Shown piece after piece: positions 12,201-53,500 of a stretch of DNA of 64,000 nucleotides (position 1 is the stretch's first letter; each line of letters opens with the position of its first letter). A model generated the notes under the pieces. It was not told the origin of the DNA, made no database searches, and saw nothing but the letters and a program-made list of their open reading frames with translations. Origin of the DNA: Antedon mediterranea (lineage: Eukaryota > Animalia > Echinodermata); NCBI RefSeq assembly GCF_964355755.1, contig NC_092675.1, positions 12,643,812 through 12,707,811 on the forward strand. Reading direction: 5' to 3'. Position numbers and translations under genes: made by a program.

Positions 12201-14950
12201 GTGCTTAGAATAGCTTCAAATCGCATTTGGAAACGTTTTAGACCATTTTGTGATTTTCGAAAAAACTTGTTAACATAAAAACACGAAAGTGCTTAGAATA
12301 GCTTCAAATCGCATTTGGAGACGTTTTAGACCAATTTGTGATTTTCGAAAAAACTTATCAACATAAAAACACCAAAGGGTTTAGAATAGCTTCAAATCGC
12401 ATTTGGAGACGTTTTAGACCATTTTGTGATTTTGAAAAAACTTGTTAACATAAAAACACCAAAGTGCTTAGAATAGCTTCAAATCGCATTTGGAGACGTT
12501 TTAGACCATTTTGTGATTTTCGAAAAAACTTGTTAACATAAAAACACCAAAGTGCTTAGAATAGCTTCAAATCGTATTTGGAGACGTTTTAGACCATTTT
12601 GAGATTTTCGAAAAAACTTGGTTACACAAAAACATCAAAGTGCTTAAAATCACATTATAAACCGTTTTAGACCATTTTGAGCATTTCGATAACACTTTTC
12701 ACACAAAAACATCTAAGAGCACAAAATAGCTTAATATCGTATTTAAAAACGTTTTAGACCATTTTGAGCATTTCGACAAAACTTTTTCAAACAAAACTCC
12801 AAAGTGCTTAGAATAGCTTCAAATCGCATTTGGAGACGTTTTAGACCAATTTGTGATTTTCGAAAAAACTTGTTAACATAAAAACACCAAAGTGCTTAGA
12901 ATAGCTTCAAATCACATTTGGAGACGTTTTAGACCATTTTGTGATTTTCGAAAAAACTTGTTAACAAAAAAACACGAAAGTGCTTAGAATAGCTTCAAAT
13001 CGCCTTTGGAAACGTTTTAGACCATTTTGTGATTTTCGAAAAAACTTGTTAACATAAAAACACGAAAGTGCTTAGAATCACATTATAAACCGTTTTAGAC
13101 CATTTTGAGCATTTCGATAACAATTTTCACACAAAAACATCAAAGAGCACAAAATAGCTTAATATCGTATTTAAAAATGTTTTAGACCATTTTGAGCATT
13201 TAGATAAAACTTTTTCACACAAAACACCAAAGTGCTTAGAATAGCTTCAAATCGCATTTGGAGACGTTTTAGACCAATTTGTGATTTTTGAAAAAACTTG
13301 TTAACATAAAAACACCAAAGTGCTTAGAATAGCTTCAAATCACATTTGGAGACGTTTTAGACCATTTTGTGATTTTGAACAAACTTGTTAACATAAAAAC
13401 ACCAAAGTGCTTAGAATAGCTTCAAATCGCATTTGGAGACGTTTTAGACCATTTTGTGATTTTCGAAAAAACTTGTTAACATAAAAACACCAAAGTGCTT
13501 AGAATAGCTTCAAATCGTATTTGGAGACGTTTTAGACCATTTTGAGATTTTCGAAAAAACTTGGTTACACAAAAACATCAAAGTGCTTAAAATCACATTA
13601 TAAACCGTTTTAGACCATTTTGAGCATTTCGATAACACTTTTCACACAAAAACATCAAAGAGCACAAAATAGCTTAATATCGTATTTAAAAACGTTATAG
13701 ACCATTTTGAGCATTTCGACAAAACTTTTTCACACAAAACACCAAAGTGCTTAGAATAGCTTCAAATCGCATTTGGAGACGTTTTAGACCAATTTGTGCA
13801 TTTCGATGAAACTTGATTACACAAAAACATCAAAGTGCTTAAAATCACATTATAAACCGTTTTAGACCATTTTGAGCATTTCGATAACACTTTTCACACA
13901 AAAACATCAAAGAGCACAAAATAGTTTAATATCGTATTTAAAAACGTTTTAGACCATTTTGAGCATTTAGACAAAACTTTTTCACACAAAACACCAAAGT
14001 GCTTAGAATAGCTTCAAATAACATTTGGAGACGTTTTAGACCATTTTGTGCATTTCGATGAAACTTGGTTACACAAAAACATCAAAGTGCTTAAAATCAC
14101 ATTATAAATCGTTTTAGACCATTTTGAGCATTTCGACAAAACTTTTTCACACAAAATATCAAAGGGCTTAGAATAGCTTCAAATCGCATTTGGAGACGTT
14201 TTAGACCATTTTGTGATTTTCGAAAAAACTTTTTAACATAAAAACACCAAAGTGCTTAGAATAGCTTCAAATCACATTTGGAGACGTTTTAGACCATTTT
14301 GTGATTTTCGAAAAAACTTGTTAACATAAAAACACGAAAGTGCTTAGAATAGCTTCAAATCGCATTTGGAAACGTTTTAGACCATTTTGTGATTTTCGAA
14401 AAAAATTGTTAACATAAAAACACCAAAGTGCTTAGAATCACATTATAAACCGTTTTAGACCATTTTGAGCATTTCGATAACAATTTTCACACAAAAACAT
14501 CAAAGAGCACAAAATAGCTTAATATCGTATTTAAAAATGTTTTAGACCATTTTGAGCATTTAGATAAAACTTTTTCACACAAAACACCAAAGTGCTTAGA
14601 ATAGCTTCAAATCGCATTTGGAGACGTTTTAGACCATTTTGTGATTTTCGAAAAAACTTTTTAACATAAAAACACCAAAGTGCTTAGAATAGCTTCAAAT
14701 CACATTTGGAGACGTTTTAGACCATTTTGTGATTTTCGAAAAAACTTGTTTACATAAAAACACGAAAGTGCTTAGAATAGCTTCAAATCGCATTTGGAAA
14801 CGTTTTAGACCATTTTGTGATTTTCGAAAAAAATTGTTAACATAAAAACACCAAAGTGCTTAGAATCACATTATAAACCGTTTTAGACCATTTTGAGCAT
14901 TTCGATAACAATTTTCACACAAAAACATCAAAGAGCACAAAATAGCTTAA
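9290..14950. repeat. Approximately 2994-bp tandem duplication within the satellite (boundaries approximate)
   Basis: Rare variants recur at an offset of 2994-2995 bp: CGCCTTTGG at 10007 and 13001, AACAAAAAAACACG near 9969 and 12963, AGTTTAATATC near 10929 and 13923, TTGTTTACAT near 11751 and 14746. Confidence 0.85.
13066..14424. repeat. Example of the 16-monomer, 1360-bp higher-order repeat (B-C-A-A-A-A*-B-C-A'-B-C-A'-B/C hybrid-A-A-A)
   Basis: The GAATCACATT landmark of the first B monomer recurs at 13075 and 14435 (1360 bp), 34245 and 35605 (1360 bp), and 10081 and 11440 (1359 bp, with a 1-bp deletion near 10953). The monomer lengths sum to 1360. Confidence 0.85.
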
Positions 14951-16324
14951 AGTGGAGCTACACTCAGACTTTCTCAGCTTATATTATGTTTAAGTATGTT
15001 TAATTGAAAGTGATTACATAAAAAAAACAGAGAAAACACGGAAATATTTTTCAAAAACCCATTTCTAAAAAATCGGTTAGAAAATAGTGTCTTTTAATAC
15101 ATTACACTTTTTCAGTAACTTAGGGGTTATTAGTTTACAATACGTCGCGAAACGCGTTACACTTAGCGACTGACGCGTTTTAGTCGCCGGTGAACTGTCT
15201 CCCCTTTGATAAATTATGTGTCGAAAAATGGGGAATAAATTTTATACACACAATTAATACGATTTGTTTAGGCCTAAGTAATATTTCCGATAAAAATGTC
15301 AGTATAATTTACATGTATAACCTCATGATTTGCAATGTACAACAACAGCATAATTAATCTTATCAGATTGCTTATTAACTTTAAGCTAGGCCTAGCTAAG
15401 CCGTCTCTGCTCAGCCTAGCTAGCCTTGAATTTTTGTCTAAGCCTATGGCATTCATGGGTTTGAAAATGCTTGGTCGTTTCGCCCCATTTATCGTTCCTG
15501 GGTTTTCTCGCACATTCACAAGAATTGTGAAACACAAAATCCCATACAGAACAAGAGTAGAAAAGCGATGACCGATGTGGAAGCTTAGGCCTGACTGAAA
15601 AGCAACTTTTCAGGCACCCTATCATGGCCCATGGGTAGGCCGAAGTTGGGTGTCAACAGAACAAACTTCACTGCTGTCAGCCTAGCTAGAGGCCAAACAG
15701 CATCGGTACATACCTACACTCTAGTAGGCCTAGGCCTAGCTTTATTGAATATATAGCCACGTCTTTCTCAAATCTCGTTAAATTTGACATTTTAGTAATA
15801 GTCTCATAATCACATTATTACACTGTGAAACATGATAGGGTCACATTCAGAATGTTTCAATATACTTTTCGCCCGTCAAAAATAACATCGCGACAAAATA
15901 ACAGATCGCCAGCTCTGCAGTAGTGTGATTGTAAAAATTGTCACGTGATCAGACTCCCTAGCAAAATAAAAAACCCAATTGGACCCGAACGGGGGAAAGT
16001 GTCTATTTACGCAAAATTGCGCAATGTATACGCGATAAAAATACAAGAAATAGAAAGATCTGGAAAAATTACATAAAAAAACTTTTTAAATTTTTTTTTT
16101 AGTGAAGAATTTAATTTTTTAGGATTATTCAAATATACCCCCCTTTTGCATGTAAAAGAATAGGAAATTACAAGGTATCCCCCCAAAACTCAAAAAGGCG
16201 TGATTTTCAAGAAAATCGTACTCATTGAAAAAAATTTCAAAAAAATATGAAGTATGAGGGATGATATTTTTAAATAATAGTTGAAATGTATGAAAAATAG
16301 TAATTTTCTGGGTGGAGCTCCACT
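14951..16324. mobile_element. Non-autonomous TTAA DNA transposon, Kolobok-like (1374 bp; element E1)
   Basis: TTAA is duplicated at 14947-14950 and 16325-16328, and the satellite resumes exactly (GC-TTAA ... TTAA-TATCG). The 18-bp imperfect TIR is AGTGGAGCTACACTCAGA on the left versus AGTGGAGCTCCACCCAGA (reverse complement of the right end), 16/18 matches. 5'-RR...YY-3' termini with a TTAA TSD are the established Kolobok signature. No transposase ORF. An empty paralogous site lies at 11952-11955. Confidence 0.9.
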
Positions 16325-19300
16325 TTAATATCGTATTTAAAAATGTTTTAGACCATTTTGAGCATTTAGATAAAACTTTTTCACACAAAACACCAAAGTG
16401 CTTAGAATAGCTTCAAATCGCATTTGGAGACATTTTAGACCATTTTGTGATTTTTGAAAAAACTTGTTAACATAAAAACACCAAAGTGCTTAGAATAGCT
16501 TCAAATCACATTTGGAGACGTTTTAGACCATTTTGTGATTTTCGAAAAAACTTTTTAACATAAAAACACCAAAGTGCTTAGAATAGCTTCAAATCACATT
16601 TGGAGACGTTTTAGACCATTTTGTGATTTTTGAAAAAACTTGTTAACATAAAAGCACGAAAGTGCTTAGAATAGCTTCAAATCGCATTTGGAAACGTTTT
16701 AGACCATTTTGTGATTTTCGAAAAAGATTGTTAACATAAAAACACCAAAGTGCTTAGAATCACATTATAAACCGTTTTAGACCATTTTGAGCATTTCGAT
16801 AACAATTTTCACACAAAAACATCAAAGAGCACAAAATAGCTTAATATCGTATTTAAAAATGTTTTAGACCATTTTGAGCATTTAGATAAAACTTTTTCAC
16901 ACAAAACACCAAAGTGCTTAGAATAGCTTCAAATCGCATTTGGAGACGGTTTAGACCATTTTGTGATTTTGAAAAAACTTGTTAACATAAAAACACCAAA
17001 GTGCTTAGAATAGCTTCAAATCGCATTTGGAGACGTTTTAGACCATTTTGTGATTTTCGAAAAAACTTGTTAACATAAAAACACCAAAGTGCTTAGAATA
17101 GCTTCAAATCGTATTTGGAGACGTTTTAGACCATTTTGAGATTTTCGAAAAAACTTGGTTACACAAAAACATCAAAGTGCTTAAAATCACATTATAAACC
17201 GTTTTAGACCATTTTGAGCATTTCGATAACACTTTTCACACAAAAACATCAAAGAGCACAAAATAGCTTAATATCGTATTTAAAAACGTTTTAGACCATT
17301 TTGAGCATTTCGACAAAACTTTTTCACACAAAACACCAAAGTGCTTAGAATAGCTTCAAATCGCATTTGGAGACGTTTTAGACCAATTTGTGCATTTCGA
17401 TGAAACTTGATTACACAAAAACATCAAAGTGCTTAAAATCACATTATAAACCGTTTTAGACCATTTTGAGCATTTCGATAACACTTTTCACACAAAAACA
17501 TCAAAGAGCACAAAATAGCTTAATATCGTATTTAAAAACGTTTTAGACCATTTTGAGCATTTAGACAAAACTTTTTCACACAAAACACCAAAGTGCTTAG
17601 AATAGCTTCAAATCGCATTTGGAGACGTTTTAGACCATTTTGTGCATTTCGATGGAACTTGGTTACACAAAAACATCAAAGTGCTTAAAATCACATTATA
17701 AATCGTTTTAGACCATTTTGAGCATTTCGACAAACTTTTTCACACAAAATACAAAAGTGCTTAGAATAGCTTCAAATCGCATTTGGAGACGTTTTAGACC
17801 ATTTTGTGATTTTCGAAAAAACTTTTTAACATAAAAACACCAAAGTGCTTAGAATAGCTTCAAATCACATTTGGAGACGTTTTAGACCATTTTGTGATTT
17901 TCGAAAAAACTTGTTAACATAAAAACACGAAAGTGCTTAGAATAGCTTCAAATCGCATTTAGAAACGTTTTAGACCATTTTGTGATTTTCGAAAAAATTG
18001 TTAACATAAAAACACCAAAGTGCTTAGAATCACATTATAAACCGTTTTAGACTATTTTGAGCATTTCGATAACAATTTTCACACAAAAACATCAAAGAGC
18101 ACAAAATAGCTTAATATCGTATTTAAAAATGTTTTAGACCATTTTGAGCATTTAGATAAAACTTTTTCACACAAAACACCAAAGTGCTTAGAATAGCTTC
18201 AAATCGCATTTGGAGACGTTTTAGACCAATTTGTGATTTTTGAAAAAACTTGTTAACATAAAAACACCAAAGTGCTTAGAATAGCTTCAAATCACATTTG
18301 GAGACGTTTTAGACCATTTTGTGATTTTGAACAAACTTGTTAACATAAAAACACCAAAGTGCTTAGAATAGCTTCAAATCGCATTTGGAGACGTTTTAGA
18401 CCATTTTGTGATTTTCGAAAAAACTTGTTAACATAAAAACACCAAAGTGCTTAGAATAGCTTCAAATCGTATTTGGAGACGTTTTAGACCATTTTGAGAT
18501 TTTCGAAAAAACTTGGTTACACAAAAACATCAAAGTGCTTAAAATCACATTATAAACCGTTTTAGACCATTTTGAGCATTTCGATAACACTTTTCACACA
18601 AAAACATCAAAGAGCACAAAATAGCTTAATATCGTATTTAAAAACGTTTTAGACCATTTTGAGCATTTCGACAAAACTTTTTCACACAAAACACCAAAGT
18701 GCTTAGAATAGCTTCAAATCGCATTTGGAGACGTTTTAGACCAATTTGTGCATTTCGATGAAACTTGATTACACAAAAACATCAAAGTGCTTAAAATCAC
18801 ATTATAAACCGTTTTAGACCATTTTGAGCATTTCGATAACACTTTTCACACAAAAACATCAAAGAGCACAAAATAGCTTAAAATCGTATTTATAAACGTT
18901 TTAGACCATTTTGAGCATTTCGACAAAACTTTTTCACATAAAACACCAAAGTGCTTAGAATAGCTTCAAATCGCATTTGGAGACGTTTTAGACCAATTTG
19001 TGCATTTCGATGAAACTTGATTACACAAAAACATCAAAGTGCTTAAAATCACATTATAAACCGTTTTAGACCATTTTGAGCATTTCGATAACACTTTTCA
19101 CACAAAAACATCAAAGAGCACAAAATAGCTTAATATCGTATTTAAAAACGTTTTAGACCATTTTGAGCATTTAGAAAAAACTTTTTCACACAAAACACCA
19201 AAGTGCTTAGAATAGCTTCAAATCGCATTTGAAGACGTTTTAGACCATTTTGTGATTTTTGAAAAAACTTGTTAACATAAAAACACCAAAGTGCTTAGAA

Positions 19301-20410
19301 TAGCTTCAAATCACATTTGGAGACGTTTTAGACCATTTTGTGATTTTCGAAAAAACTTGTTAACATAAAAACAAGAAAGTGCTTAGAATCACATTATAAA
19401 CCGTTTTAGACCATTTTGAGCATTTCGATAACAATTTTCACACAAAAACATCAAAGAGCACAAAATAGCTTAATATCGTATTTAAAAATGTTTTAGACCA
19501 TTTTGAGCATTTAGATAAAACTTTTTCACACAAAACACCAAAGTGCTTAGAATAGCTTCAAATCGCATTTGGAGACGTTTTAGACCATTTTGTGATTTTT
19601 GAAAAAACTTGTTAACATAAAAACACCAAAGTGCTTAGAATAGCTTCAAATCACATTTGGAGATGTTTTAGACCATTTTGTGATTTTTGTAAAAACTTGT
19701 TAACATAAAAACACGAAAGTGCTTAGAATAGCTTCAAATCACATTTGGAGACGTTTTAGACCATTTTGTGATTTTTGAAAAAACTTGTTAACATAAAAAC
19801 ACGAAAGTGCTTAGAATAGCTTCAAATCGCATTTGGAAACGTTTTAGACCATTTTGTGATTTTCGAAAAAGATTGTTAACATAAAAACACCAATGTGCTT
19901 AGAATCACATTATAAACCGTTTTAGACCATTTTGAGCATTTCGATAACAATTTTCACACAAAAACATCAAAGAGCACAAAATAGCTTAATATCGTATTTA
20001 TAAATGTTTTAGACCATTTTGAGCATTTCGACAAAACTTTTTCACACAAAACACCAAAGTGCTTAGAATAGCTTCAAATCGCATTTGGAGACGTTTTTTA
20101 TACCATTTTGTGATTTCGATGAAACTTGATTACACAAAAACATCAAAGTCCTTAAAATCACATTATAAACCGTTTTAGACCATTTTGAGCATTTCGATAA
20201 CACTTTTCACACAAAAACATCAAAGAGCACAAAATAGCTTAATTTTTTTATTTTATTTTATTTTATTTAATTTTCAGGCAAACATACATGACAACACAGC
20301 GGTGCAGCACCCTGAGGATTGCCATGAGTGCAAAGCACTATCGAGATGGCTCTCCATATACTGCACTAGAACATATAAGACAAACATATACACAAGATGC
20401 TCTACATAGA

Positions 20411-20434
20411 CAAAGACTTATTATTAAGTCTTTG
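20411..20434. repeat. Perfect hairpin, 10-bp arms with 4-nt loop, inside the SINE-like element
   Basis: CAAAGACTTA-TTAT-TAAGTCTTTG. Confidence 0.95.
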
Positions 20435-20460
20435 GGAGTGGAGTTGTAAATTGTCATGAG

Positions 20461-20467
20461 AAAAAAA
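20461..20467 (-). terminator. T7 run, potential Pol III terminator just downstream of the tRNA-like head
   Basis: The minus strand reads CCTGTCATATGTCAGGG-TTTTTTT, 15 nt after the B box. Runs of four or more T terminate Pol III. Function here is inferred. Confidence 0.45.
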
Positions 20468-20482
20468 CCCTGACATATGACA

Positions 20483-20537
20483 GGACTTGAACCCAGGACC
20501 CTTAGATTGGTAGCCAAGCATCATAACCACCAAGCCA
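20483..20537 (-). promoter_or_regulatory. RNA polymerase III type-2 internal promoter (A box and B box) in the tRNA-like SINE head
   Basis: The A box TGGCTTGGTGG at 20537-20527 fits TRGCNNARYGG approximately. The B box GGTTCAAGTCC at 20493-20483 fits GGTTCRANNCC. The spacing is 33 nt, as in tRNA genes. Confidence 0.8.
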
Positions 20538-23500
20538 CAGCTCCACTCCTAATATCGTATTTAAAAACGTTTTAGACCATTTTGAGCATTTAGACAAAAC
20601 TTTTTCACACAAAACACCAAAGTGCTTAGAATAGCTTCAAATCGCATTTGGAGACGTTTTAGAACATTTTGTGTTTTTCGAAAAAAACTGTTAACATAAA
20701 AACACCAAAGTGCTTAGAATAGCTTCAAATCGCATTTGGAGACGTTTTAGAACATTTTGTGTTCTTCGAAAAAACCTGTTAACATAAAAACACCAAAGTG
20801 CTTAGAATAGCTTCAAATCGCATTTGGAGACGTTTTAGACCATTTTGTGATTTTTGAAAAAACTTGTTAACATAAAAACACCAAAGTGCTTAGAATAGCT
20901 TCAAATCACATTTGGAGACGTTTTAGACCATTTTGTGATTTTCGAAAAAACTTGTTAACATAAAAACACGAAAGTGCTTAGAATAGCTTCAAATCGCATT
21001 TGGAAACGTTTTAGACCATTTTGTGATTTTCGAAAAAGATTGTTAACATAAAAACACCAAAGTGCTTAGAATCACAATATAAACCGTTTTAGACCATTTT
21101 GAGCATTTCGATAACAATTTTCACACAAAAACATCAAAGAGCACAAAATAGCTTAATATCGTATTTAAAAATGTTTTAGACCATTTTGAGCATTTAGATA
21201 AAACTTTTTCACACAAAACACCAAAGTGCTTAGAATAGCTTCAAATCGCATTTGGAGACGGTTTAGACCATTTTGTGATTTTGAAAAAACTTGTTAACAT
21301 AAAAACACCAAAGTGCTTAGAATAGCTTCAAATCGCATTTGGAGACGTTTTAGACCATTTTGTGATTTTCGAAAAAACTTGTTAACATAAAAACACCAAA
21401 GTGCTTAGAATAGCTTCAAATCGTATTTGGAGACGTTTTAGACCATTTTGAGATTTTCGAAAAAACTTGGTTACACAAAAACATCAAAGTGCTTAAAATC
21501 ACATTATAAACCGTTTTAGACCATTTTGAACATTTCGATAACACTTTTCACACAAAAACATCAAAGAGCACAAAATAGCTTAATATCGTATTTAAAAACG
21601 TTTTAGACCATTTTGAGCATTTCGACAAAACTTTTTCACACAAAACACCAAAGTGCTTAGAATAGCTTCAAATCGCATTTGGAGACGTTTTAGACCAATT
21701 TGTGCATTTCGATGAAACTTGATTACACAAAAACATCAACGTGCTTAAAATCACATTATAAACCGTTTTAGACCATTTTGAGCATTTCGATAACACTTTT
21801 CACACAAAAACATCAAAGAGCACAAAATAGCTTAATATCGTATTTAAAAACGTTTTAGACCATTTTGAGCATTTAGACAAAACTTTTTCACACAAAACAC
21901 CAAAGTGCTTAGAATAGCTTCAAATCGCATTTGGAGACGTTTTAGACCATTTTGTGCATTTCGATGAAACTTGGTTACACAAAAACATCAAAGTGCTTAA
22001 AATCACATTATAAATCGTTTTAGACCATTTTGAGCATTTCGACAAAACTTTTTCACACAAAAACACGAAAGTGCTTAGAATAGCTTCAAATCGCATTTGG
22101 AAACGTTTTAGACCATTTTGTGATTTTCGAAAAAACTTGTTAACATAAAAACACGAAAGTGCTTAGAATAGCTTCAAATCGCATTTGGAAACGTTTTAGA
22201 CCATTTTGTGATTTTCGAAAAAAATTGTTAACATAAAAACACCAAAGTGTTTAGAATAGCTTCAAATCGCATTTGGAGACGTTTTAGACCAATTTGTGAT
22301 TTTCGAAAAAACTTATCAACATAAAAACACCAAAGGGTTTAGAATAGCTTCAAATCGCATTTGGAGACGTTTTAGACCATTTTGTGATTTTGAAAAAACT
22401 TGTTAACATAAAAACACCAAAGTGCTTAGAATAGCTTCAAATCGCATTTGGAGACGTTTTAGACCATTTTGTGATTTTCGAAAAAACTTGTTAACATAAA
22501 AACACCAAAGTGCTTAGAATAGCTTCAAATCGTATTTGGAGACGTTTTAGACCATTTTGAGATTTTCGAAAAAACTTGGTTACACAAAAACATCAAAGTG
22601 CTTAAAATCACATTATAAACCGTTTTAGACCATTTTGAACATTTCGATAACACTTTTCACACAAAAACATCAAAGAGCACAAAATAGCTTAATATCGTAT
22701 TTAAAAACGTTTTAGACCATTTTGAGCATTTCGACAAAACTTTTTCACACAAAACACCAAAGTGCTTAGAATAGCTTCAAATCGCATTTGGAGACGTTTT
22801 AGACCAATTTGTGCATTTCGATGAAACTTGATTACACAAAAACATCAACGTGCTTAAAATCACATTATAAACCGTTTTAGACCATTTTGAGCATTTCGAT
22901 AACACTTTTCACACAAAAACATCAAAGAGCACAAAATAGCTTAATATCGTATTTAAAAACGTTTTAGACCATTTTGAGCATTTAGACAAAACTTTTTCAC
23001 ACAAAACACCAAAGTGCTTAGAATAGCTTCAAATAACATTTGGAGACGTTTTAGACCATTTTGTGCATTTCGATGAAACTTGGTTACACAAAAACATCAA
23101 AGTGCTTAAAATCACATTATAAATCTTTTTAGACCATTTTGAGAATTTCGACAAAACTTTTTCACACAAAATATCAAAGGGCTTAGAATAGCTTCAAATC
23201 GCATTTGGAGACGTTTTAGACCATTTTGTGCATTTCGATGAAACTTGGTTACACAAAAACATCAAAGTGCTTAAAATCACATTATAAATCGTTTTAGACC
23301 ATTTTGAGCATTTCGACAAAACTTTTTCACACAAAAACACGAAAGTGCTTCGAATAGCTTCAAATCGCATTTGGAAACGTTTTAGACCATTTTGTGATTT
23401 TCGAAAAAACTTGTTAACATAAAAACACGAAAGTGCTTAGAATAGCTTCAAATCGCATTTGGAGACGTTTTAGACCAATTTGTGATTTTCGAAAAAACTT

Positions 23501-32500: not shown

Positions 32501-33000
32501 TGTGCATTTCGATGAAACTTGATTACACAAAAACATCAACGTGCTTAAAATCACATTATAAACCGTTTTAGACCATTTTGAGCATTTCGATAACACTTTT
32601 CACACAAAAACATCAAAGAGCACAAAATAGCTTAATATCGTATTTAAAAACGTTTTAGACCATTTTGAGCATTTAGACAAAACTTTTTCACACAAAACAC
32701 CAAAGTGCTTAGAATAGCTTCAAATCGCATTTGGAGACGTTTTAGACCATTTTGTGCATTTCGATGAAACTTGGTTACACAAAAACATCAAAGTGCTTCA
32801 AATGACATTATAAATCGTTTTAGACCATTTTGAGCATTTCGACAAAACTTTTTCACACAAAATACCAAAGGGCTTAGAATAGCTTCAAATCGCATTTGGA
32901 GACGTTTTAGACCATTTTGTGATTTTCGAAAAAACTTTTTAACATAAAAACACCAAAGTGCTTAGAATAGCTTCAAATCACATTTGGAGACGTTTTAGAC

Positions 33001-41600: not shown

Positions 41601-44600
41601 TAAAATCACATTATAATCCGTTTTAGACCATTTTGAGCATTTCGATAACACTTTTCACACAAAAACATCAAAGAGCACAAAATAGCTTAATATCGTATTT
41701 AAAAACGTTTTAGACCATTTTGAGCATTTCGACAAAACTTTTTCACACAAAACACCAAAGTGCTTAGAATAGCTTCAAATCGCATTTGGAGACGTTTTAG
41801 ACCATTTTGTGATTTTCGAAAAAAATTGTTAACATAAAAACATCAAAGTGTACAGAATAGCTTCAAATCGCATTTGGAGACCGTTTTAGGGCAATTTGTG
41901 ATTTTCGAAAAAACTTGTTAACCTAAAAATACCAAAGTGTTTAGAATAGCTTCAAATCGCATTTGGAGACGTTTTAGACCATTTTGTGATTTTCGAAAAA
42001 ACTTGTTAACATAAAAACACCAAAGTGCTTAGAATAGCTTCAAATCGCATTTGGAGACATTTTAGACCAATTTGTGATTTTCGAAAAAACTTGTCAACAT
42101 AAAAACACCAAAGTGTTTAGAATAGCTTCAAATCGCATTTGGAGACGTTTTAGACCAATTTGTGATTTACGAAAAAACTTATCAACATAAAAACACCAAA
42201 GGGTTTAGAATAGCTTCAAATCGCATTTTGAGACGTTTTAGACCATTTTGTGATTTTCGAAAAAACTTGTTAACATAAAAACACGAAAGTGCTTAGAATA
42301 GCTTCAAATCGCATTTGGAAACGTTTTAGACCATTTTGTGATTTTCGAAAAAGATTGTTAACATAAAAACACCAATGTGCTTAGAATCACATTATAAACC
42401 GTTTTAGACCATTTTGAGCATTTCGATAACAATTTTCACACAAAAACATCAAAGAGCACAAAATAGCTTAATATCGTATTTAAAAATGTTTTAGACCATT
42501 TTGAGCATTTAGATTAAACTTTTTCACACAAAACACCAAAGTGCTTAGAATAGCTTCAAATCGAATTTGGAGACGGTTTAGACCATTTTGTGATTTTGAA
42601 AAAACTTGTTAACATAAAAACACCAAAGTGCTTAGAATAGCTTCAAATTGCATTTGGAGACGTTTTAGACCATTTTGTGATTTTCGAAAAAACTTGTTAA
42701 CATAAAAACACCAAAGTGCTTAGAATAGCTTAAAATCGTATTTGGAGACGTTTTAGACCATTTTGAGATTTTCGAAAAAACTTGGTTACACAAAAACATC
42801 AAAGTGCTTAAAATCACATTATAAACCGTTTTAGACCATTTTGAGCATTTCGATAACACTTTTCACACAAAAACATCAAAGAGCACAAAATAGCTTAATA
42901 TCGTATTTAAAAACGTTTTAGACCATTTTGAGCATTTCGACAAAACTTTTTCACACAAAACACCAAAGTGCTTAGAATAGCTTCAAATCGCATTTGGAGA
43001 CGTTTTAGACCAATTTGTGCATTTCGATGAAACTTGATTACACAAAAACATCAAAGTGCTTAAAATCACATTATAAACCGTTTTAGACCATTTTGAGCAT
43101 TTCGATAACACTTTTCACACAAAAACATCAAAGAGCACAAAATAGCTTAATATCGTATTTAAAAACGTTTTAGACCATTTTGAGCATTTAGAAAAAACTT
43201 TTTCACACAAAACACCCAAGTGCTTAGAATAGCTTCAAATCGCATTTGAAGACGTTTTAGACCATTTTGTGATTTTCGAAAAAACTTGTTAACATAAAAA
43301 CACGAAAGTGCTTAGAATAGCTTCAAATCGCATTTGGAAACGTTTTAGACCATTTTGTGATTTTCGAAAAAACTTGTTAACATAAAAACACGAAAGTGCT
43401 TAGAATAGCTTCAAATCGCATTTGGAAACGTTTTAGACCATTTTGTGATTTTCGAAAAAACTTGTTAACATAAAAACATGAAAGTGCTTAGAATAGCTTC
43501 AAATCGTATTTGGAGACGTTTTAGACCATTTTGTAATTTTCGAAAAAACTTGTTAACATAAAAACACCAATGTGCTTAGAATAGCTTCAAATCGCATTTT
43601 GAGACGTTTTTTATACCATTTTGTGATGTCGATGAAAATTGATTACACAAAAACATCAAAGTGCTTAAAATCACATTATAAACCGTTTTAGACCATTTTG
43701 AGCATTTCGATAACACTTTTCACACAAAAACATCAAAGAGCACAAAATAGCTTAATATCGTATTTAAAAACGTTTTAGACCATTTTGAGCATTTAGACAA
43801 AACTTTTTCACACAAAACACCAAAGTGCTTAGAATAGCTTCAAATCGCATTTGGAGACGTTTTAGAACATTTTGTGTTTTTCGAAAAAAACTGTTAACAT
43901 AAAAACACCAAAGTGCTTAGAATAGCTTCAAATCGCATTTGGAGACGTTTTAGAACATTTTGTGTTCTTCGAAAAAACCTGTTAACATAAAAACACCAAA
44001 GTGCTTAGAATAGCTTCAAATCGCATTTGGAGACGTTTTAGACCATTTTGTGATTTTTGAAAAAACTTGTTAACATAAAAACACCAAAGTGCTTAGAATA
44101 GCTTCAAATCACATTTGGAGACGTTTTAGACCATTTTGTGATTTTCGAAAAAACTTGTTAACATAAAAACACGAAAGTGGTTAGAATAGCTTCAAATCGC
44201 ATTTGGAAACGTTTTAGACCATTTTGTGATTTTCGAAAAAGATTGTTAACATAAAAACACCAAAGTGCTTAGAATCACAATATAAACCGTTTTAGACCAT
44301 TTTGAGCATTTCGATAACAATTTTCACACAAAAACATCAAAGAGCACAAAATAGCTTAATATCGTATTTAAAAATGTTTTAGACCATTTTGAGCATTTAG
44401 ATAAAACTTTTTCACACAAAACACCAAAGTGCTTAGAATAGCTTCAAATCGCATTTGGAGACGGTTTAGACCATTTTGTGATTTTGAAAAAACTTGTTAA
44501 CATAAAAACACCAAAGTGCTTAGAATAGCTTCAAATCGCATTTGGAGACGTTTTAGACCATTTTGTGATTTTCGAAAAAACTTGTTAACATAAAAACACC

Positions 44601-46235
44601 AAAGTGCTTAGAATAGCTTCAAATCGTATTTGGAGACGTTTTAGACCATTTTGAGATTTTCGAAAAAACTTGGTTACACAAAAACATCAAAGTGCTTAAA
44701 ATCACATTATAAACCGTTTTAGACCATTTTGAACATTTCGATAACACTTTTCACACAAAAACATCAAAGAGCACAAAATAGCTTAATATCGTATTTAAAA
44801 ACGTTTTAGACCATTTTGAGCATTTCGACAAAACTTTTTCACACAAAACACCAAAGTGCTTAGAATAGCTTCAAATCGCATTTGGAGACGTTTTAGACCA
44901 ATTTGTGCATTTCGATGAAACTTGATTACACAAAAACATCAACGTGCTTAAAATCACATTATAAACCGTTTTAGACCATTTTGAGCATTTCGATAACACT
45001 TTTCACACAAAAACATCAAAGAGCACAAAATAGCTTAATATCGTATTTAAAAACGTTTTAGACCATTTTGAGCATTTAGACAAAACTTTTTCACACAAAA
45101 CACCAAAGTGCTTAGAATAGCTTCAAATCGCATTTGGAGACGTTTTAGACCATTTTGTGCATTTCGATGAAACTTGGTTACACAAAAACATCAAAGTGCT
45201 TAAAATGACATTATAAATCGTTTTAGACCATTTTGAGCATTTCGACAAAACTTTTTCACACAAAATACCAAAGGGCTTAGAATAGCTTCAAATCGCATTT
45301 GGAGACGTTTTAGACCATTTTGTGATTTTCGAAAAAACTTTTTAACATAAAAACACCAAAGTGCTTAGAATAGCTTCAAATCACATTTGGAGACGTTTTA
45401 GACCATTTTGTGATTTTCGAAAAAACTTGTTAACATAAAAACACGAAAGTGCTTAGAATAGCTTCAAATCGCATTTGGAAACGTTTTAGACCATTTTGTG
45501 ATTTTCGAAAAAACTTGTTAACATAAAAACACGAAAGTGCTTAGAATAGCTTCAAATCGCATTTGGAAACGTTTTAGACCATTTTGTGATTTTCGAAAAA
45601 AATTGTTAACATAAAAACACCAAAGTGCTTAGAATCACATTATAAACCGTTTTAGACCATTTTGAGCATTTCGATAACAATTTTCACACAAAAACATCAA
45701 AGAGCACAAAATAGCTTAATATCGTATTTAAAAATGTTTTAGACCATTTTGAGCATTTAGATAAAACTTTTTCACACAAAACACCAAAGTGCTTAGAATA
45801 GCTTCAAATCGCATTTGGAGACGTTTTAGACCATTTTGTGATTTTTGAAAAAACTTGTTAACATAAAAACACCAAAGTGCTTAGAATAGCTTCAAATCAC
45901 ATTTGGAGACGTTTTAGACCATTTTGTGATTTTCGAAAAAACTTGTTAACATAAAAACACGAAAGTGCTTAGAATAGCTTCAAATCGCATTTGGAAACGT
46001 TTTAGACCATTTTGTGATTTTCGAAAAAACTTGTTAACATAAAAACACGAAAGTGCTTAGAATAGCTTCAAATCGCATTTGGAAACGTTTTAGACCATTT
46101 TGTGATTTTCGAAAAAACTTGTTAACATAAAAACACGAAAGTGCTTAGAATCACATTATAAACCGTTTTAGACCATTTTGAGCATTTCGATAACAATTTT
46201 CACACAAAAACATCAAAGAGCACAAAATAACTTAA

Positions 46236-46782
46236 AGATGTATTGTCCCTTTGACTAATTCCAAAAAAATAAAAAATAAAAGATTTCGAAAAAAGGTGGG
46301 TCATTTTGAAGTATCATAATAGTTATTAACTATCACCAAAAATTTTTTGAAAAAAAAAAAATTTAACTGAAATACAGACGTGTTTTTGTTAAAAAAATAA
46401 CTTTGACTTCCAGTCAAAGTTTTCAGTCAAAACATATCCCATAAGGAAACACGCTTGTTTGGCTACTCTGTATGCATAATCATAAAACTTCCTCATGATC
46501 TGTGTGAAATAACCTTCTTAACCGTGACGAGTTGTAAACAATCCTAATTTAGCATATGCATAATGCGTACTCATGGTTTGAAATCTTTGTTTACTTTAGC
46601 TCGTGACGATTTTCCAAATGAAATGTAATCAAACTAATTTACCTGTTAATTACGTAAACTTGTTGTTTTTGGCTAAAATTTTCGACTTAAAGTGAATAAC
46701 TTTAACATTACTTTGATATGGCCACTTTAAATTTAGAATATTTTGACCTTCATTTTTTTGTGTTTCAAGGGACAATACATCT
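46236..46782. mobile_element. Non-autonomous TTAA DNA transposon/MITE, Kolobok-like (547 bp; element E3, copy 1)
   Basis: The TTAA TSD lies at 46232-46235 and 46783-46786. The TIR is a perfect 16 bp, AGATGTATTGTCCCTT ... AAGGGACAATACATCT, with AG...CT (RR...YY) termini. No ORF. Confidence 0.92.
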
Positions 46783-49528
46783 TTAATATCGTATTTATAA
46801 ATGTTTTAGACCATTTTGAGCATTTCGACAAAACTTTTTCACACAAAACACCAAAGTTCTTAGAATAGCTTCAAATCGCATTTGGAGACGTTTTAGACCA
46901 TTTTGTGATTTCGATGAAACTTGATTACACAAAAACATCAAAGTGCTTAAAATCACATTATAAACCGTTTTAGACCATTTTGAGCATTTCGATAACACTT
47001 TTCACACAAAAACATCAAAGAGCAAAAAATAGCTTAATATCGTATTTAAAAACGTTTTAGACCATTTTGAGCATTTAGACAAAACTTTTTCACACAAACA
47101 CCAAAGTGCTTAGAATAGCTTCAAATCGCATTTGGAGACGTTTTAGAACATTTTGTGTTTTTCGAAAAAAACTGTTAACATAAAAACACCAAAGTGCTTA
47201 GAATAGCTTCAAATCGCATTTGGAGACGTTTTAGAACATTTTGTGTTCTTCGAAAAAACCTGTTAACATAAAAACACCAAAGTGCTTAGAATAGCTTCAA
47301 ATCGCATTTGGAGACGTTTTAGACCATTTTGTGATTTTTGAAAAAACTTGTTAACATAAAAACACCAAAGTGCTTAGAATAGCTTCAAATCACATTTGGA
47401 GACGTTTTAGACCATTTTGTGATTTTCGAAAAAACTTGTTAACATAAAAACACCAAAGTGCTTAGAATAGCGTCAAATCGTATTTGGAGACGTTTTAGAC
47501 CATTTTGTGATTTTCGAAAAAACTTGTTAACATAAAAACACCAAAGTGCTTAGAATAGCTTCAAATCGCATTTGGAGACGGTTTAGACCATTTTATGATT
47601 TTGAAAAAACTTGTTAACATAAAAACACCAAAGTGCTTATAATAGCTTCAAATCGCATTTGGAGACGTTTTAGACCATTTTGTGATTTTCGAAAAAACTT
47701 GTTAACATAAAAAAACCAAAGTGCTTAGAATAGCTTCAAATCGTATTTGGAGACGTTTTAGACCATTTTGAGATTTTCGAAAAAACTTGGTTACACAAAA
47801 ACATCAAAGTGCTTAAAATCACATTATAAACCGTTTTAGACCATTTTGAGCATTTCGATAACACTTTTCACACAAAAACATCAAAGAGCACAAAATAGCT
47901 TAATATCGTATTTAAAAACGTTTTAGACCATTTTGAGCATTTCGACAAAAACGTTTTCACACAAAACACCAAAGTGCTTAGAATAGCTTCAAATCGCATT
48001 TGGAGACGTTTTAGACCAATTTGTGCATTTCGATGAAACTTGATTACACAAAAACATCAAAGTGCTTAAAATCACATTATAAACCGTTTTAGACCATTTT
48101 GAGCATTTCGATAACACTTTTCACACAAAAACATCAAAGAGCACAAAATAGCTTAATATCGTATTTAAAAACGTTTTAGACCATTTTGAGCATTTCGACA
48201 AAACTTTTTCACACAAAACACCAAAGTGCTTAGAATAGCTTCAAATCGCATTTGGAGACGTTTTAGACCAATTTTGTGCATTTCGATGAAACTTGATTAC
48301 ACAAAAACATCAAAGTGCTTAAAATCACATTATAAACCGTTTTAGACCTTTTTGAGCATTTCGATAACACTTTTCACACAAAAACATCAAAGAGCACAAA
48401 ATAGCTTAATATCGTATTTAAAAACGTTTTAGACCATTTTGAGCATTTAGACAAAACTTTTTCACACAAAACACCAAAGTGCTTAGAATAGCTTCAAATC
48501 GCATTTGGAGACGTTTTAGACCATTTTGTGATTTTTGAAAAAACTTGTTAACATAAAAACACCAAAGTGCTTAGAATAGCTTCAAATCACATTTGGAGAC
48601 GTTTTAGACCATTTTGTGATTTTCGAAAAAACTTGTTAACATAAAAACACGAAAGTGCTTAGAATAGCTTCAAATCGCATTTGGAAACGTTTTAGACCAT
48701 TTTGTGATTTTCGAAAAAACTTGTTAACATAAAAACACGAAAGTGCTTAGAATCACATTATAAACCGTTTTAGACCATTTTGAGCATTTCGATAACAATT
48801 TTCACACAAAAACATCAAAGAGCACAAAATAGCTTAATATCGTATTTAAAAATGTTTTAGACCATTTTGAGCATTTAGATAAAACTTTTTCACACAAAAC
48901 ACCAAAGTGCTTAGAATAGCTTCAAATCGCATTTGGAGACGTTTTAGACCATTTTGTGATTTTCGAAAAAACTTGTTAACATAAAAACACGAAAGTGCTT
49001 AGAATAGCTTCAAATCGCATTTGGAAACGTTTTAGACCATTTTGTGATTTTCGAAAAAAATTGTTAACATAAAAACACCAAAGTGTTTAGAATAGCTTCA
49101 AATCGCATTTGGAGACGTTTTAGACCAATTTGTGATTTTCGAAAAAACTTATCAACATAAAAACACCAAAGGGTTTAGAATAGCTTCAAATCGCATTTGG
49201 AGACGTTTTAGACCATTTTGTGATTTTGAAAAAACTTGTTAACATAAAAACACCAAAGTGCTTAGAATAGCTTCAAATCGCATTTGGAGACGTTTTAGAC
49301 CATTTTGTGATTTTCGAAAAAACTTGTTAACATAAAAACACCAAAGTGCTTAGAATAGCTTCAAATCGTATTTGGAGACGTTTTAGACCATTTTGAGATT
49401 TTCGAAAAAACTTGGTTACACAAAAACATCAAAGTGCTTAAAATCACATTATAAACCGTTTTAGACCATTTTGAGCATTTCGGTAACACTTTTCACACAA
49501 AAACATCAAAGAGCACAAAATAGCTTAA

Positions 49529-50582
49529 CACTTTGACTGCCAGAGGTTTTTCCAGTTAGAAACTGCCACCGCCAGCGTTTTTAGCCCAATTCGATGTTTT
49601 TATTAAAGCTGATTGAAACCATGTATGTGATTTGATTTATATATAATTTAGACTAAAATAATCATAAAGATTTTAGCTTTACAATGGTACCAAGAACGAT
49701 TTTTAAATCGCAATATGTAAATTGTAATAGTAAAATGAAAGTAACCCACTTTTTGAATTTTTCGTAGTTTCGCGCAAGAAAGTCGAGATATTCGCGATTT
49801 TGTGCAAGACATCACAATATGAAAATATCGCCCGGTGAGATCAACAAACAACGAAAAAGTTACTTACACGGCACCGATAGGCCTATAAAAACAAGTTATC
49901 ACTATCGAAAAATGTATTACATTTTATAAATCATAAATCTTACATCAATGTTTCGCCAAAATCCACATAGTAAAGACACCAGGCCTAATTAACCAGGCCT
50001 AAAGTTGGTCCGGAACCGTTTTACGACTAGGGCTAGGCTAGCCTAGTACTACTAGCCTAGGCCTAGCTAGGAGATAGTAAACTGATGATAATAACCATAC
50101 CATTTCCAAACAAGTTTGTTGCGTGAAACTCGGTCACTTTCAGTAAAACACCAAAACAATTAGGGTATACATACAATAATAAAATTAAAGACTTCATATT
50201 GAAAATGACTCCATTACTTTTTATTCAGATAACAAACAAACATGTCAATCCACAAAAACCTTTGTAATGCTTCGGCGGCATAGCTAGCGCGCGACCGATA
50301 CACAATGCGCCAAGCCATCGGTCTACGCGCTACTGTGATGCGCGGTGTTTGTTATTTCGACAGGTACCATTTTGACAGTCGTTCGTAACCAGATTAGTTA
50401 CTTTCAAATTGTAAAATATTGACGGTCCAGACCGAATATAGTGTTCATATTTATAGTATATACCAATAATTAACCTATCTACCGGATTTCGTAAAAAAAC
50501 GCGAAAAACGAAGATCTTCGTTTTTGGCAGTCAAGCGTTGTGTTTCCAAAAATGAAGATCTTCGTGTTTGGCAGTCAAAGTG
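49529..50582. mobile_element. Non-autonomous piggyBac-like TTAA transposon (1054 bp; element E4, copy 1)
   Basis: The TTAA TSD lies at 49525-49528 and 50583-50586. The TIR is a perfect 14 bp, CACTTTGACTGCCA ... TGGCAGTCAAAGTG. C...G termini and asymmetric subterminal repeats are as in piggyBac elements. No transposase ORF. Confidence 0.88.
50504..50582. repeat. Subterminal direct repeat (44-bp period) of a palindrome plus TIR core at the right end of E4
   Basis: A perfect 22-bp palindrome AAAAACGAAGATCTTCGTTTTT (50504-50525) is followed by GGCAGTCAA. It is repeated as AAAAATGAAGATCTTCGTGTTT-GGCAGTCAA from 50548. Confidence 0.92.
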
Positions 50583-53500
50583 TTAATATCGTATTTAAAA
50601 ACGTTTTAGACCATTTTGAGCATTTAGACAAAACTTTTTCACACAAAACACCAAAGTGCTTAGAATAGCTTCAAATCGCATTTGGAGACGTTTTAGACCA
50701 TTTTGTGCATTTCGATGAAACTTGGTTACACAAAAACATCAAAGTGCTTAAAATCACATTATAAATCGTTTTAGACCATTTTGAGCATTTCGACAAAACT
50801 TTTTCACACAAAATACCAAAGTGCTTAGAATAGCTTCAAATCGCATTTGGAGACGTTTTAGACCATTTTGTGATTTTCGAAAAAACTTTTTAACATAAAA
50901 ACACCAAAGTGCTTAGAATAGCTTCAAATCACATTTGGAGACGTTTTAGACCATAAGTGCTTAGAATCACATTATAAACCGTTTTAGACCATTTTGAGCA
51001 TTTCGATAACAATTTTCACACAAAAACATCAAAGAGCACAAAATAGCTTAATATCGTATTTAAAAATGTTTTAGACCATTTTGAGCATTTAGATAAAACT
51101 TTTTCACACAAAACACCAAAGTGCTTAGAATAGCTTCAAATCGCATTTGGAGACGTTTTAGACCATTTTGTGATTTTTGAAAAAACTTGTTAACATAAAA
51201 ACACCAAAGTGCTTAGAATAGCTTCAAATCACATTTGGAGACGTTTTAGACCATTTTGTGATTTTTGAAAAAACTTGTTAACATAAAAACACCAAAGTGC
51301 TTAGAATAGCTTCAAATCGCATTTGGAGACGTTTTAGACCATTTTGTGATTTTCGAAAAAAATTGTTAACATAAAAACATCAAAGTGTACAGAATAGCTT
51401 CAAATCGCATTTGGAGACCGTTTTAGGGCAATTTGTGATTTTCGAAAAAACTTGTTAACCTAAAAATACCAAAGTGTTTAGAATAGCTTCAAATCGCATT
51501 TGGAGACGTTTTAGACCATTTTGTGATTTTCGAAAAAACTTGTTAACATAAAAACACCAAAGTGCTTAGAATAGCTTCAAATCGCATTTGGAGACATTTT
51601 AGACCAATTTGTGATTTTCGAAAAAACTTGTCAACATAAAAACACCAAAGTGTTTAGAATAGCTTCAAATCGCATTTGGAGACGTTTTAGACCAATTTGT
51701 GATTTACGAAAAAACTTATCAACATAAAAACACCAAAGGGTTTAGAATAGCTTCAAATCGCATTTTGAGACGTTTTAGACCATTTTGTGATTTTCGAAAA
51801 AACTTGTTAACATAAAAACACGAAAGTGCTTAGAATAGCTTCAAATCGCATTTGGAAACGTTTTAGACCATTTTGTGATTTTCGAAAAAGATTGTTAACA
51901 TAAAAACACCAATGTGCTTAGAATCACATTATAAACCGTTTTAGACCATTTTGAGCATTTCGATAACAATTTTCACACAAAAACATCAAAGAGCACAAAA
52001 TAGCTTAATATCGTATTTAAAAATGTTTTAGACCATTTTGAGCATTTAGATTAAACTTTTTCACACAAAACACCAAAGTGCTTAGAATAGCTTCAAATCG
52101 AATTTGGAGACGGTTTAGACCATTTTGTGATTTTGAAAAAACTTGTTAACATAAAAACACCAAAGTGCTTAGAATAGCTTCAAATTGCATTTGGAGACGT
52201 TTTAGACCATTTTGTGATTTTCGAAAAAACTTGTTAACATAAAAACACCAAAGTGCTTAGAATAGCTTAAAATCGTATTTGGAGACGTTTTAGACCATTT
52301 TGAGATTTTCGAAAAAACTTGGTTACACAAAAACATCAAAGTGCTTAAAATCACATTATAAACCGTTTTAGACCATTTTGAGCATTTCGATAACACTTTT
52401 CACACAAAAACATCAAAGAGCACAAAATAGCTTAATATCGTATTTAAAAACGTTTTAGACCATTTTGAGCATTTCGACAAAACTTTTTCACACAAAACAC
52501 CAAAGTGCTTAGAATAGCTTCAAATCGCATTTGGAGACGTTTTAGACCAATTTGTGCATTTCGATGAAACTTGATTACACAAAAACATCAAAGTGCTTAA
52601 AATCACATTATAAACCGTTTTAGACCATTTTGAGCATTTCGATAACACTTTTCACACAAAAACATCAAAGAGCACAAAATAGCTTAATATCGTATTTAAA
52701 AACGTTTTAGACCATTTTGAGCATTTAGAAAAAACTTTTTCACACAAAACACCCAAGTGCTTAGAATAGCTTCAAATCGCATTTGAAGACGTTTTAGACC
52801 ATTTTGTGATTTTCGAAAAAACTTGTTAACATAAAAACACGAAAGTGCTTAGAATAGCTTCAAATCGCATTTGGAAACGTTTTAGACCATTTTGTGATTT
52901 TCGAAAAAACTTGTTAACATAAAAACACGAAAGTGCTTAGAATAGCTTCAAATCGCATTTGGAAACGTTTTAGACCATTTTGTGATTTTCGAAAAAACTT
53001 GTTAACATAAAAACATGAAAGTGCTTAGAATAGCTTCAAATCGTATTTGGAGACGTTTTAGACCATTTTGTAATTTTCGAAAAAACTTGTTAACATAAAA
53101 ACACCAATGTGCTTAGAATAGCTTCAAATCGCATTTTGAGACGTTTTTTATACCATTTTGTGATTTCGATGAAAATTGATTACACAAAAACATCAAAGTG
53201 CTTAAAATCACATTATAAACCGTTTTAGACCATTTTGAGCATTTCGATAACACTTTTCACACAAAAACATCAAAGAGCACAAAATAGCTTAATATCGTAT
53301 TTAAAAACGTTTTAGACCATTTTGAGCATTTAGACAAAACTTTTTCACACAAAACACCAAAGTGCTTAGAATAGCTTCAAATCGCATTTGGAGACGTTTT
53401 AGAACATTTTGTGTTTTTCGAAAAAAACTGTTAACATAAAAACACCAAAGTGCTTAGAATAGCTTCAAATCGCATTTGGAGACGTTTTAGAACATTTTGT

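What the first reader, a model, noticed from the sequence alone, without database searches (positions are those of the whole stretch)
14941..50590. Four unrelated mobile elements of three mechanistic classes all insert at the same TTAA of one satellite monomer
Seen: E1 (14951), the SINE E2 (20244), E3 (46236) and E4 (49529) all interrupt the C monomer at GAGCACAAAATA(G/A)C-TTAA-TATCGTATTT. The array offers other TTAA classes: GTTAAC in most A monomers, CTTAAA in one B subtype, and TTTAAA 10 bp downstream in the same C monomer. By hand count this site is only 3 of about 15 TTAA sites per 1360-bp unit, and no other class is hit. Known: Kolobok and piggyBac need TTAA, but SINEs insert by target-primed reverse transcription and do not, so TTAA preference alone cannot explain the SINE. 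Inference: the site may be a host-defined landing pad in the satellite, such as a phased nucleosome linker, a bent or unwound AT segment, or a gap between bound satellite proteins. Alternatively, insertions elsewhere in the monomer may be purged because they break a functional unit. Caveat: there are only four independent events.
Basis: partly seen in the sequence, partly recalled or inferred. Interest (0 to 1): 0.85.

Follow-up and report, generated by a model that had tools for sequence, protein, structure and literature searches.

The report
Four transposons share one satellite site
Four unrelated jumping elements sit at the same spot of an 88-base satellite repeat, likely because that spot is the only flexible, TA-rich TTAA the repeat offers rather than because the host marks it, and four events are too few to settle this.

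Summary
The array has six insertions from four independent events; E3 and E4 recur as identical copies in a 9.5-kb duplication. E1 and E3 (Kolobok-type) and E4 (piggyBac-type) duplicate the C-monomer TTAA exactly. The SINE E2 duplicates TAA(T), one base off.

This site is 116 of 632 array TTAAs (18%). Three TTAA elements sharing a class is unremarkable alone (p=0.13). Adding an unbiased SINE gives p=0.002-0.005.

The likeliest cause is sequence-encoded target choice. Only this TTAA class lies outside an A-tract and is not flanked G...C, and it has the most TA steps. The SINE family's 5' flanks gave an AATAT consensus in two runs (weak); 97 of 116 such motifs in the array lie at this site.

Array turnover, purging and a toy nucleosome model do not explain it. 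A linker would also expose the unused TTTAAA 12 bp away. Flank preferences of E1, E3 and E4 in this genome could not be measured.

Precedents: Pokey in 28S rDNA, hotspots in human repeats, and similar satellite cases this scan noted in other genomes. A host landing pad is not excluded (about 0.17).

The parts
1..64000 (+). AT-rich satellite array of 688 monomers: A types (87-88 bp, 430), B types (78 bp, 137), C (87 bp, 118), 3 unclassed; irregular higher-order arrangement, shortest common unit C-a-b of 252 bp
16841..16844 (+). Example of the empty target: the CTTAAT-class TTAA of a C monomer (116 of 632 TTAA in the array)
16853..16856 (+). Example of the unused TTTAAA-class TTAA, 12 bp downstream in the same C monomer (112 of 632); internal control for chromatin and turnover
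14951..16324 (.). E1: 1374-bp non-coding Kolobok-type element, AG termini, about 18-bp TIRs, TTAA duplication; host monomer identical to a common C type (32 in the window)
20244..20549 (-). E2: 306-bp full-length SINE-like element, tRNA-type A and B boxes by eye, (TAAAA)n tail, duplication TAA(T) shifted one base from the TTAA
46236..46782 (.). E3: 547-bp non-coding Kolobok-type element, AG termini, perfect 16-bp TIRs, TTAA duplication; private G>A two bases left of the site
49529..50582 (.). E4: 1054-bp non-coding piggyBac-type element, CACTTT termini, perfect 14-bp TIRs, palindromic 31-nt subterminal direct repeat, TTAA duplication
55773..56319 (.). E3b: copy of E3 made by array duplication, not a new insertion
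59066..60119 (.). E4b: copy of E4 made by array duplication, not a new insertion
41749..51361 (+). First copy of a recent tandem duplication of about 9.5 kb (repeated at +9537) that carries E3 and E4

Best explanation
Four unrelated elements sit at one position of the satellite's C monomer, likely because each insertion enzyme has an ordinary liking for flexible, TA-rich DNA and this TTAA is the only such site that the repeat offers. The array holds just four TTAA contexts, each repeated 91-308 times, so a modest preference looks like a single site.

Shown: junction anatomy, four independent events, the census of contexts, and that the C site is the only class both outside an A-tract and not flanked G...C, with about 4 TA steps within 8 bp against 1-3 for the other classes.

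Inferred: Kolobok- and piggyBac-type transposases made elsewhere bend and open the target, so they would favour this TTAA over the A-tract-embedded TTTAAAAA and CTTAAAA and over GTTAAC. A LINE endonuclease would nick the adjacent alternating AT run and prime the SINE there. E1 and E3 may share one enzyme family, which would leave about three independent preferences. Later array duplication copied E3 and E4.
For: Physical contrast of the classes (chosen after seeing the site).

SINE family 5' flanks at position 20549 gave consensus AATAT in both runs laid (33 and 31 contigs, agreement 0.43 and 0.44). Simulated AT-rich flanks give agreement 0.38-0.41, and that word appears by chance in 3-6% of single runs. 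In the array, 97 of 116 AATAT/ATATT motifs, and 194 of 490 alternating TATA/ATAT cut points, lie at the C site, against 1.6% under uniform insertion.

piggyBac targets printed in PMC3078864 Tables 2-3: by my count 0 of 15 distinct TTAA targets have C next to the TTAA, the base that GTTAAC shows on both strands. The authors report repeated use of one TTAA while neighbours are ignored. Pokey prefers C at -1 and T at -4, both present here, though its G at +4 is not. Position hotspots within repeat consensuses hold for 82% of human insertion types across all TE classes.
Against: The flank preferences of E1, E3 and E4 in this genome were not measured; one search was swamped by satellite contigs. 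The AATAT hint is one base out of register with E2's own flank. It comes from two runs that may share loci, it was not seen at the neighbouring stop position 20547 (ATATT in one run, ACAAT in the other), and the SINE's 3' junction was skipped by the tool. PMC4786924 describes piggyBac targets as embedded in AT-rich DNA, which would favour TTTAAA rather than CTTAAT. Nine distinct flanks of a family with E4's 14-bp terminus in metagenome contigs had A3 T3 C2 G1 at -1, so no clear preference. Even with GTTAAC excluded, the C site is only 36% of the remaining sites. L1-type and RTE-type target rules do not predict the SINE's position (0.5% and 2.3% of their sites).
Confidence: 0.55

Rival explanations
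1. Host-defined landing pad: phased nucleosomes or satellite-binding proteins leave this part of the C monomer open in germ cells, so all insertion enzymes are steered there.
For: Three mechanisms hit one site with joint p=0.002-0.005 if the SINE is unbiased. piggyBac prefers linker DNA in human cells (PMC4786924). The commonest C-to-C spacing is 252 bp, with steps of about 88 bp, lengths that could phase nucleosomes (inference).
Against: The TTTAAA 12 bp away shares the same linker and nearly the same helical face, yet has 0 of 2 informative events (p=0.25, weak). The toy occupancy model changed with its parameters and never singled out the C site from its neighbour. No chromatin data were available.
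Confidence: 0.17
2. Mostly chance: three TTAA elements happened to share a class and one AT-loving SINE landed beside it.
For: p=0.13 for three elements in one class, 0.12 when weighted by monomer age. A SINE that needs only six A/T bases lands at this site 7% of the time. The window was picked out from very many scanned windows.
Against: The joint probability is below 0.01 under uniform or mildly AT-biased SINE insertion. The largest class (49% of sites) was missed by all four.
Confidence: 0.16
3. Break capture: a TTAA transposon excised from this site and the SINE cDNA was patched into the break, so E2 is not an independent choice of target.
For: The junction can also be read as TTAA on the left and TTAA minus one base on the right. 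The only multi-base deletion among 101 C monomers removes this site (18 bp, monomer at 3239).
Against: E2 is full length to the family's 5' boundary and has a tail and a duplication, as expected of normal target-primed insertion (general knowledge). piggyBac excision is precise (PMC5381638). The deletion has microhomology and is 1 of about 5 deletion events in the array.
Confidence: 0.06
4. Survival bias: insertions occur everywhere, but those in A and B monomers are removed faster by array turnover or by selection on a functional motif.
For: At monomers carry fewer private substitutions (1.38 per kb) than C monomers (2.28 per kb), so they are homogenised somewhat faster.
Against: Weighting by private-substitution density moves the C site's share only from 0.18 to 0.20. 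B2 monomers with GTTAAC carry the most private changes (5.45 per kb). The downstream TTTAAA has the same history as the used site. The GTTAAC region is the most variable TTAA class.
Confidence: 0.06

Closest known systems
Pokey and mPok in Daphnia 28S rDNA (PMC3849761; passages and section 10 read)
   Same: piggyBac-type elements use one TTAA of more than 30 in a tandem host repeat, and the choice is mirrored by weak flank preferences genome-wide (C at -1, T at -4, both present here). R elements insert in the same gene (paper's background; their closeness to the Pokey site is recalled).
   Different: Pokey has evolved long-term specificity and many copies sit at that site. Here four unrelated families each contribute one event, the repeat is a satellite, and at least the SINE is dispersed genome-wide.
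Insertion hotspots within human repeat consensuses (PMC2836564; abstract and section 13 read)
   Same: Insertions into a multicopy sequence pile up at particular consensus positions, for DNA, LTR, SINE and LINE elements, and not always at the canonical motif.
   Different: Based on about 300,000 events in dispersed repeats. The section read shows hotspots per inserted family, not one position shared by three mechanisms.
piggyBac hotspots and linker preference in human cells (PMC3078864, passages and Tables 2-3; PMC4786924, passages)
   Same: One TTAA is reused while nearby TTAAs are ignored, which the authors attribute to sequence context; linker DNA is preferred.
   Different: Engineered single-family assays in cell lines; no Kolobok or SINE, and no hits in satellite DNA in PMC3078864.
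Kolobok / T2-MITE elements of Xenopus (PMC6004289; passages)
   Same: TTAA duplication and AG termini, as in E1 and E3.
   Different: E1 and E3 lack the AGGRR motif of T2-MITEs and show no transposase. No flank preference beyond TTAA appears in the passages seen.

Membership tests
Kolobok superfamily, non-autonomous (E1, E3) | TTAA target duplication | tested here: met
   definition in PMC6004289
Kolobok superfamily, non-autonomous (E1, E3) | TIRs that begin with RR (AG) | tested here: met
   E1 AGTGG..., E3 AGATG...; arms 91% and 100% complementary
Kolobok superfamily, autonomous | THAP-DDE transposase gene | tested here: not met
   E1's longest stop-to-stop frame is 111 aa. E3 is 547 bp; its frames were not listed. 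Filed as Kolobok-type by their ends only.
T2-MITE family | terminal AGGRR motif | tested here: not met
   termini are AGTGG and AGATG against the definition
piggyBac-like element, non-autonomous (E4) | TTAA duplication and 12-19 bp TIRs starting C[CAT][CAT][TGA][TAG][TGA] | tested here: met
   14-bp perfect TIRs starting CACTTT; motif from PMC5381638
piggyBac-like element, non-autonomous (E4) | subterminal direct or palindromic repeats (found in 94 of 157 PBLE) | tested here: met
   31-nt direct repeat at 50504 and 50548, self-complementary
piggyBac-like element, autonomous | DDD transposase gene | not tested
   E4's frames were not listed; at 1054 bp it is shorter than the smallest PBLE (1721 bp)
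tRNA-derived SINE (E2) | tRNA-related head with A and B boxes | tested here: inconclusive
   Boxes seen by eye against a recalled consensus. ARAGORN found 0 genes and Rfam gave no tRNA hit. A run of 7 T follows the head.
tRNA-derived SINE (E2) | microsatellite or A-rich 3' tail, length 200-700 nt, dispersed multicopy family | tested here: met
   (TAAAA)n tail, 306 bp; 2010 and 2566 contigs laid, with diverse 5' flanks; criteria from PMC11481361
tRNA-derived SINE (E2) | 6-18 bp target duplication (typical, not required in PMC11481361) | tested here: not met
   duplication is 3-4 bp
Site-specific elements of multicopy repeats (Pokey / R2 type) | a large share of the family's copies sits at one site of the host repeat | tested here: not met
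   SINE only: depth falls from 82,638 to 93 (X15) and from 312,529 to 547 (X18) where the satellite flank begins. E4 inconclusive. E1 and E3 not tested.
Chromatin-defined landing pad | accessible position in vivo coinciding with the site, beyond sequence preference | not testable with these tools
   no chromatin data; the toy model is not a test of this

The most novel reading that the evidence does not exclude
The C monomer of this abundant satellite carries a host-made window, a phased linker or protein-free bent segment, that steers Kolobok, piggyBac and target-primed retrotransposition to one base pair position. Insertions would then be a fossil footprint of germ-line satellite chromatin.
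Probability: 0.17. Interest if true: 0.65.

Novelty: new member of a known kind. Interest (0 to 1): 0.3.

Why it matters
As best explained, it is a tidy example of how a satellite turns weak target preferences into an apparent single site, and a chance to measure Kolobok flank preference, for which my searches gave nothing beyond TTAA. If the landing-pad reading held, insertion maps would read out germ-line chromatin on satellite DNA in animals where it has not been assayed.

Tried and rejected
No whole genome is held for the window, so the decisive census of insertions across all arrays could not be run.

Laying public contigs on one A-b-C-a unit with E4: all 24 loose-end rows shown (926 not shown) were satellite sequence, so neither other insertion sites nor E4 flanks could be read. 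The joints near the C site are biased by the reference break and were not counted as evidence.

The satellite motif was absent from metagenome contigs. E4's terminus matched 38 loci. Only 12 loci with 9 distinct flanks shared a subterminal motif and were counted; 26 were dropped as chance or unclear. The result was inconclusive (its partner-TIR column was faulty and not used).

Toy nucleosome model: parameter-dependent. Local duplex stability does not single out the C site. L1-type and RTE-type target rules were rejected as predictors, although a T run does lie about 10 nt upstream of E2's duplication as in PMC6007223; that paper's signature fits 4041 positions in the array.

The 9-base match between E2's 5' end and E1's TIR was considered as a sign that the SINE replaced a Kolobok copy. 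It was set aside because that end is the family's normal boundary and pairs with an internal arm of the SINE.

Supplement 1 of PMC3078864 held no target sequences; supplement 2 was not read. Figures with piggyBac sequence logos (PMC4786924, PMC3078864) could not be seen and may bear on the flank preference. PMC5932611 (passages) added nothing specific.
Full report
Setting. The whole window is one AT-rich satellite. Splitting it gives 688 monomers: 430 A-type (87-88 bp), 137 B-type (78 bp), 118 C (87 bp) and 3 unclassed, in irregular order. Earlier notes on this genome call the animal a feather star; I did not test that. In public contigs the satellite's summed depth is about a hundred to a thousand times that of the E4 family, depending on the run. 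It is therefore abundant, though depth is not a copy number.

Observation. A k-mer scan for non-satellite sequence finds six insertions and no others. E3b and E4b are letter-for-letter copies of E3 and E4 inside a tandem duplication with offset 9537, so there are four events. E1 (14951-16324), E3 (46236-46782) and E4 (49529-50582) have terminal inverted repeats and duplicate the TTAA of the C monomer exactly. They show no similarity to each other beyond short low-complexity matches. E1 and E3 begin with AG, as Kolobok elements do (PMC6004289, passages). E4 begins CACTTT with a 14-bp TIR and a palindromic subterminal repeat, as piggyBac-like elements do (PMC5381638, passages). E2 (20244-20549) lies on the minus strand, has A- and B-box-like motifs by eye and a (TAAAA)n tail, and duplicates TAA or TAAT, one base off the TTAA. 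ARAGORN and Rfam do not recognise its head.

Chance. The reconstructed empty array holds 632 TTAAs: 116 at the C site, 112 at the TTTAAA 12 bp further on, 91 CTTAAA in B1, 308 G/T-TTAAC in A and B2, and 5 others. Three TTAA elements share some class with p=0.13. All four, if treated as TTAA users, do so with p=0.06. The values for the named class (0.006 and 0.001) are post hoc. With the SINE placed uniformly, the joint value is 0.002-0.005. Four of four puts the site's true share above 0.47 at 95% one-sided, at least 2.6-fold over supply, if one ignores that the class was chosen afterwards. The pattern is probably non-random, but it leans on one SINE and the window was selected from many.

Turnover and selection. 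Private substitutions per kb, a clock for time since homogenisation, are 2.28 (C), 2.38 (Ag), 1.38 (At), 1.95 (B1) and 5.45 (B2). Weighting by them lifts the C site only to 0.20. The GTTAAC is kept in 221 of 256 At monomers against 99 of 101 for the C site, so it does not look like a protected motif. The downstream TTTAAA shares the C site's history. Purging is unlikely.

Sequence. The C site is the only class that is both outside an A- or T-tract and not flanked by G and C. It has about 4 TA steps within 8 bp, against 3, 2 and 1 for the others; duplex stability does not separate it. These features were picked after seeing the site. In PMC3078864 (passages with Tables 2-3) I count 15 distinct TTAA targets, none followed by C (one non-TTAA row left out), and the authors report reuse of one TTAA while neighbours are ignored. 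Pokey, a piggyBac element, uses one of more than 30 TTAAs in Daphnia rDNA and prefers C at -1 and T at -4 elsewhere (PMC3849761, section 10). The C site has both, but not the preferred G at +4. Against this, piggyBac targets are described as AT-embedded (PMC4786924, passages), which would favour TTTAAA, and nine flanks of a family with E4's terminus showed no clear bias.

The SINE. Laying contigs of two runs on E2 shows a large dispersed family: 2010 and 2566 contigs, a shared 5' boundary at 20547-20549, and diverse AT-rich flanks. Depth falls to 0.1-0.2% where this satellite flank begins, so the family does not home to the site. At stop position 20549 both runs gave a flank consensus starting AATAT (33 and 31 contigs; agreement 0.43 and 0.44). 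Simulated AT-rich flanks give agreement 0.38-0.41 and that word in 3-6% of runs. In the array 97 of 116 such motifs are at the C site. The hint is weak: it is one base out of register with E2's own flank, the runs may share loci, the rows at 20547 disagree (ATATT, ACAAT), only 12 of 354 loose-end rows were shown, and the 3' junction was skipped. L1-type and RTE-type rules (PMC6007223, abstract and section 18) do not predict the site.

Chromatin. piggyBac does prefer linkers, so a phased linker is plausible. But it would open the TTTAAA 12 bp away as well; that site was available in 2 of the 3 TTAA events and used in neither (p=0.25). A toy nucleosome model gave the two sites nearly equal occupancy in 12 of 12 settings and lower occupancy at A/B2 in 10 of 12; it is parameter-dependent and only shows a lack of support.

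What could not be done. No genome is held. One search was swamped by satellite contigs, so neither other insertion sites nor flanks of E1, E3 or E4 were read. One contig of run X18 ends exactly at E4's TTAA, which fits flanks that branch there.

Comparison with what is known. Position hotspots inside repeats are general: 654 of 799 human insertion types depart from expectation (PMC2836564, abstract and section 13). Earlier notes of this scan describe similar satellite cases in other genomes, mostly put down to ordinary target preference; they are unchecked and I saw them after forming my reading. My searches (listings only, except the papers named) showed no report of Kolobok, piggyBac and a SINE at one satellite position, and none of the 15 papers listed for crinoid satellites mentions crinoids. 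The library lacks most subscription papers.

Verdict. The feature is real and is a new member of a known kind. Sequence-encoded target choice 0.55, host landing pad 0.17, chance 0.16, break capture 0.06, survival bias 0.06. Interest 0.3.

Noticed in passing
window 41749-51361 and +9537: Very recent tandem duplication of about 9.5 kb of the array (7 mismatches in 9613 bases) that copied two transposon insertions; a collapsed or doubled assembly segment was not excluded.
   Followed up: partly
window 20377-20549 versus 20278-20376: The SINE is modular: its head and core reach about ten times the contig depth of its 3' part, and other copies continue from 20377 into a different sequence, suggesting exchanged tails.
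   Followed up: partly
window 20411-20553, minus strand: The SINE head folds strongly (z = -4.3): its 5' end pairs with an arm about 90 nt downstream, directly followed by a perfect 10-bp hairpin, and a run of 7 T lies just after the B box, odd for a Pol III transcript.
   Followed up: partly
window 20539-20547 and 14951-14959 / 16316-16324: The SINE's 5' end and E1's TIR share 9 identical bases at almost the same distance from the target; taken as coincidence.
   Followed up: partly
window about 3302 (C monomer at 3239): An 18-bp deletion removes the target TTAA; it is the only multi-base deletion among 101 C monomers.
   Followed up: partly
window 1-64000: Insertion density is high: 4 independent events in 102 non-duplicated C monomers. 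The satellite is very abundant in the laid runs and may be centromeric (untested).
   Followed up: no
L003, L006, L008, L010, L011, L015, L016, L020, L029, L030, L033: A repeat family in metagenome contigs shares E4's exact 14-bp terminus plus TTAA but has unrelated subterminal sequence with CCCATGG repeats.
   Followed up: partly
window 15380-15745 and 49975-50070: E1 and E4, otherwise unrelated, both carry central TAGGCCTA/CTAG-rich low-complexity patches.
   Followed up: no
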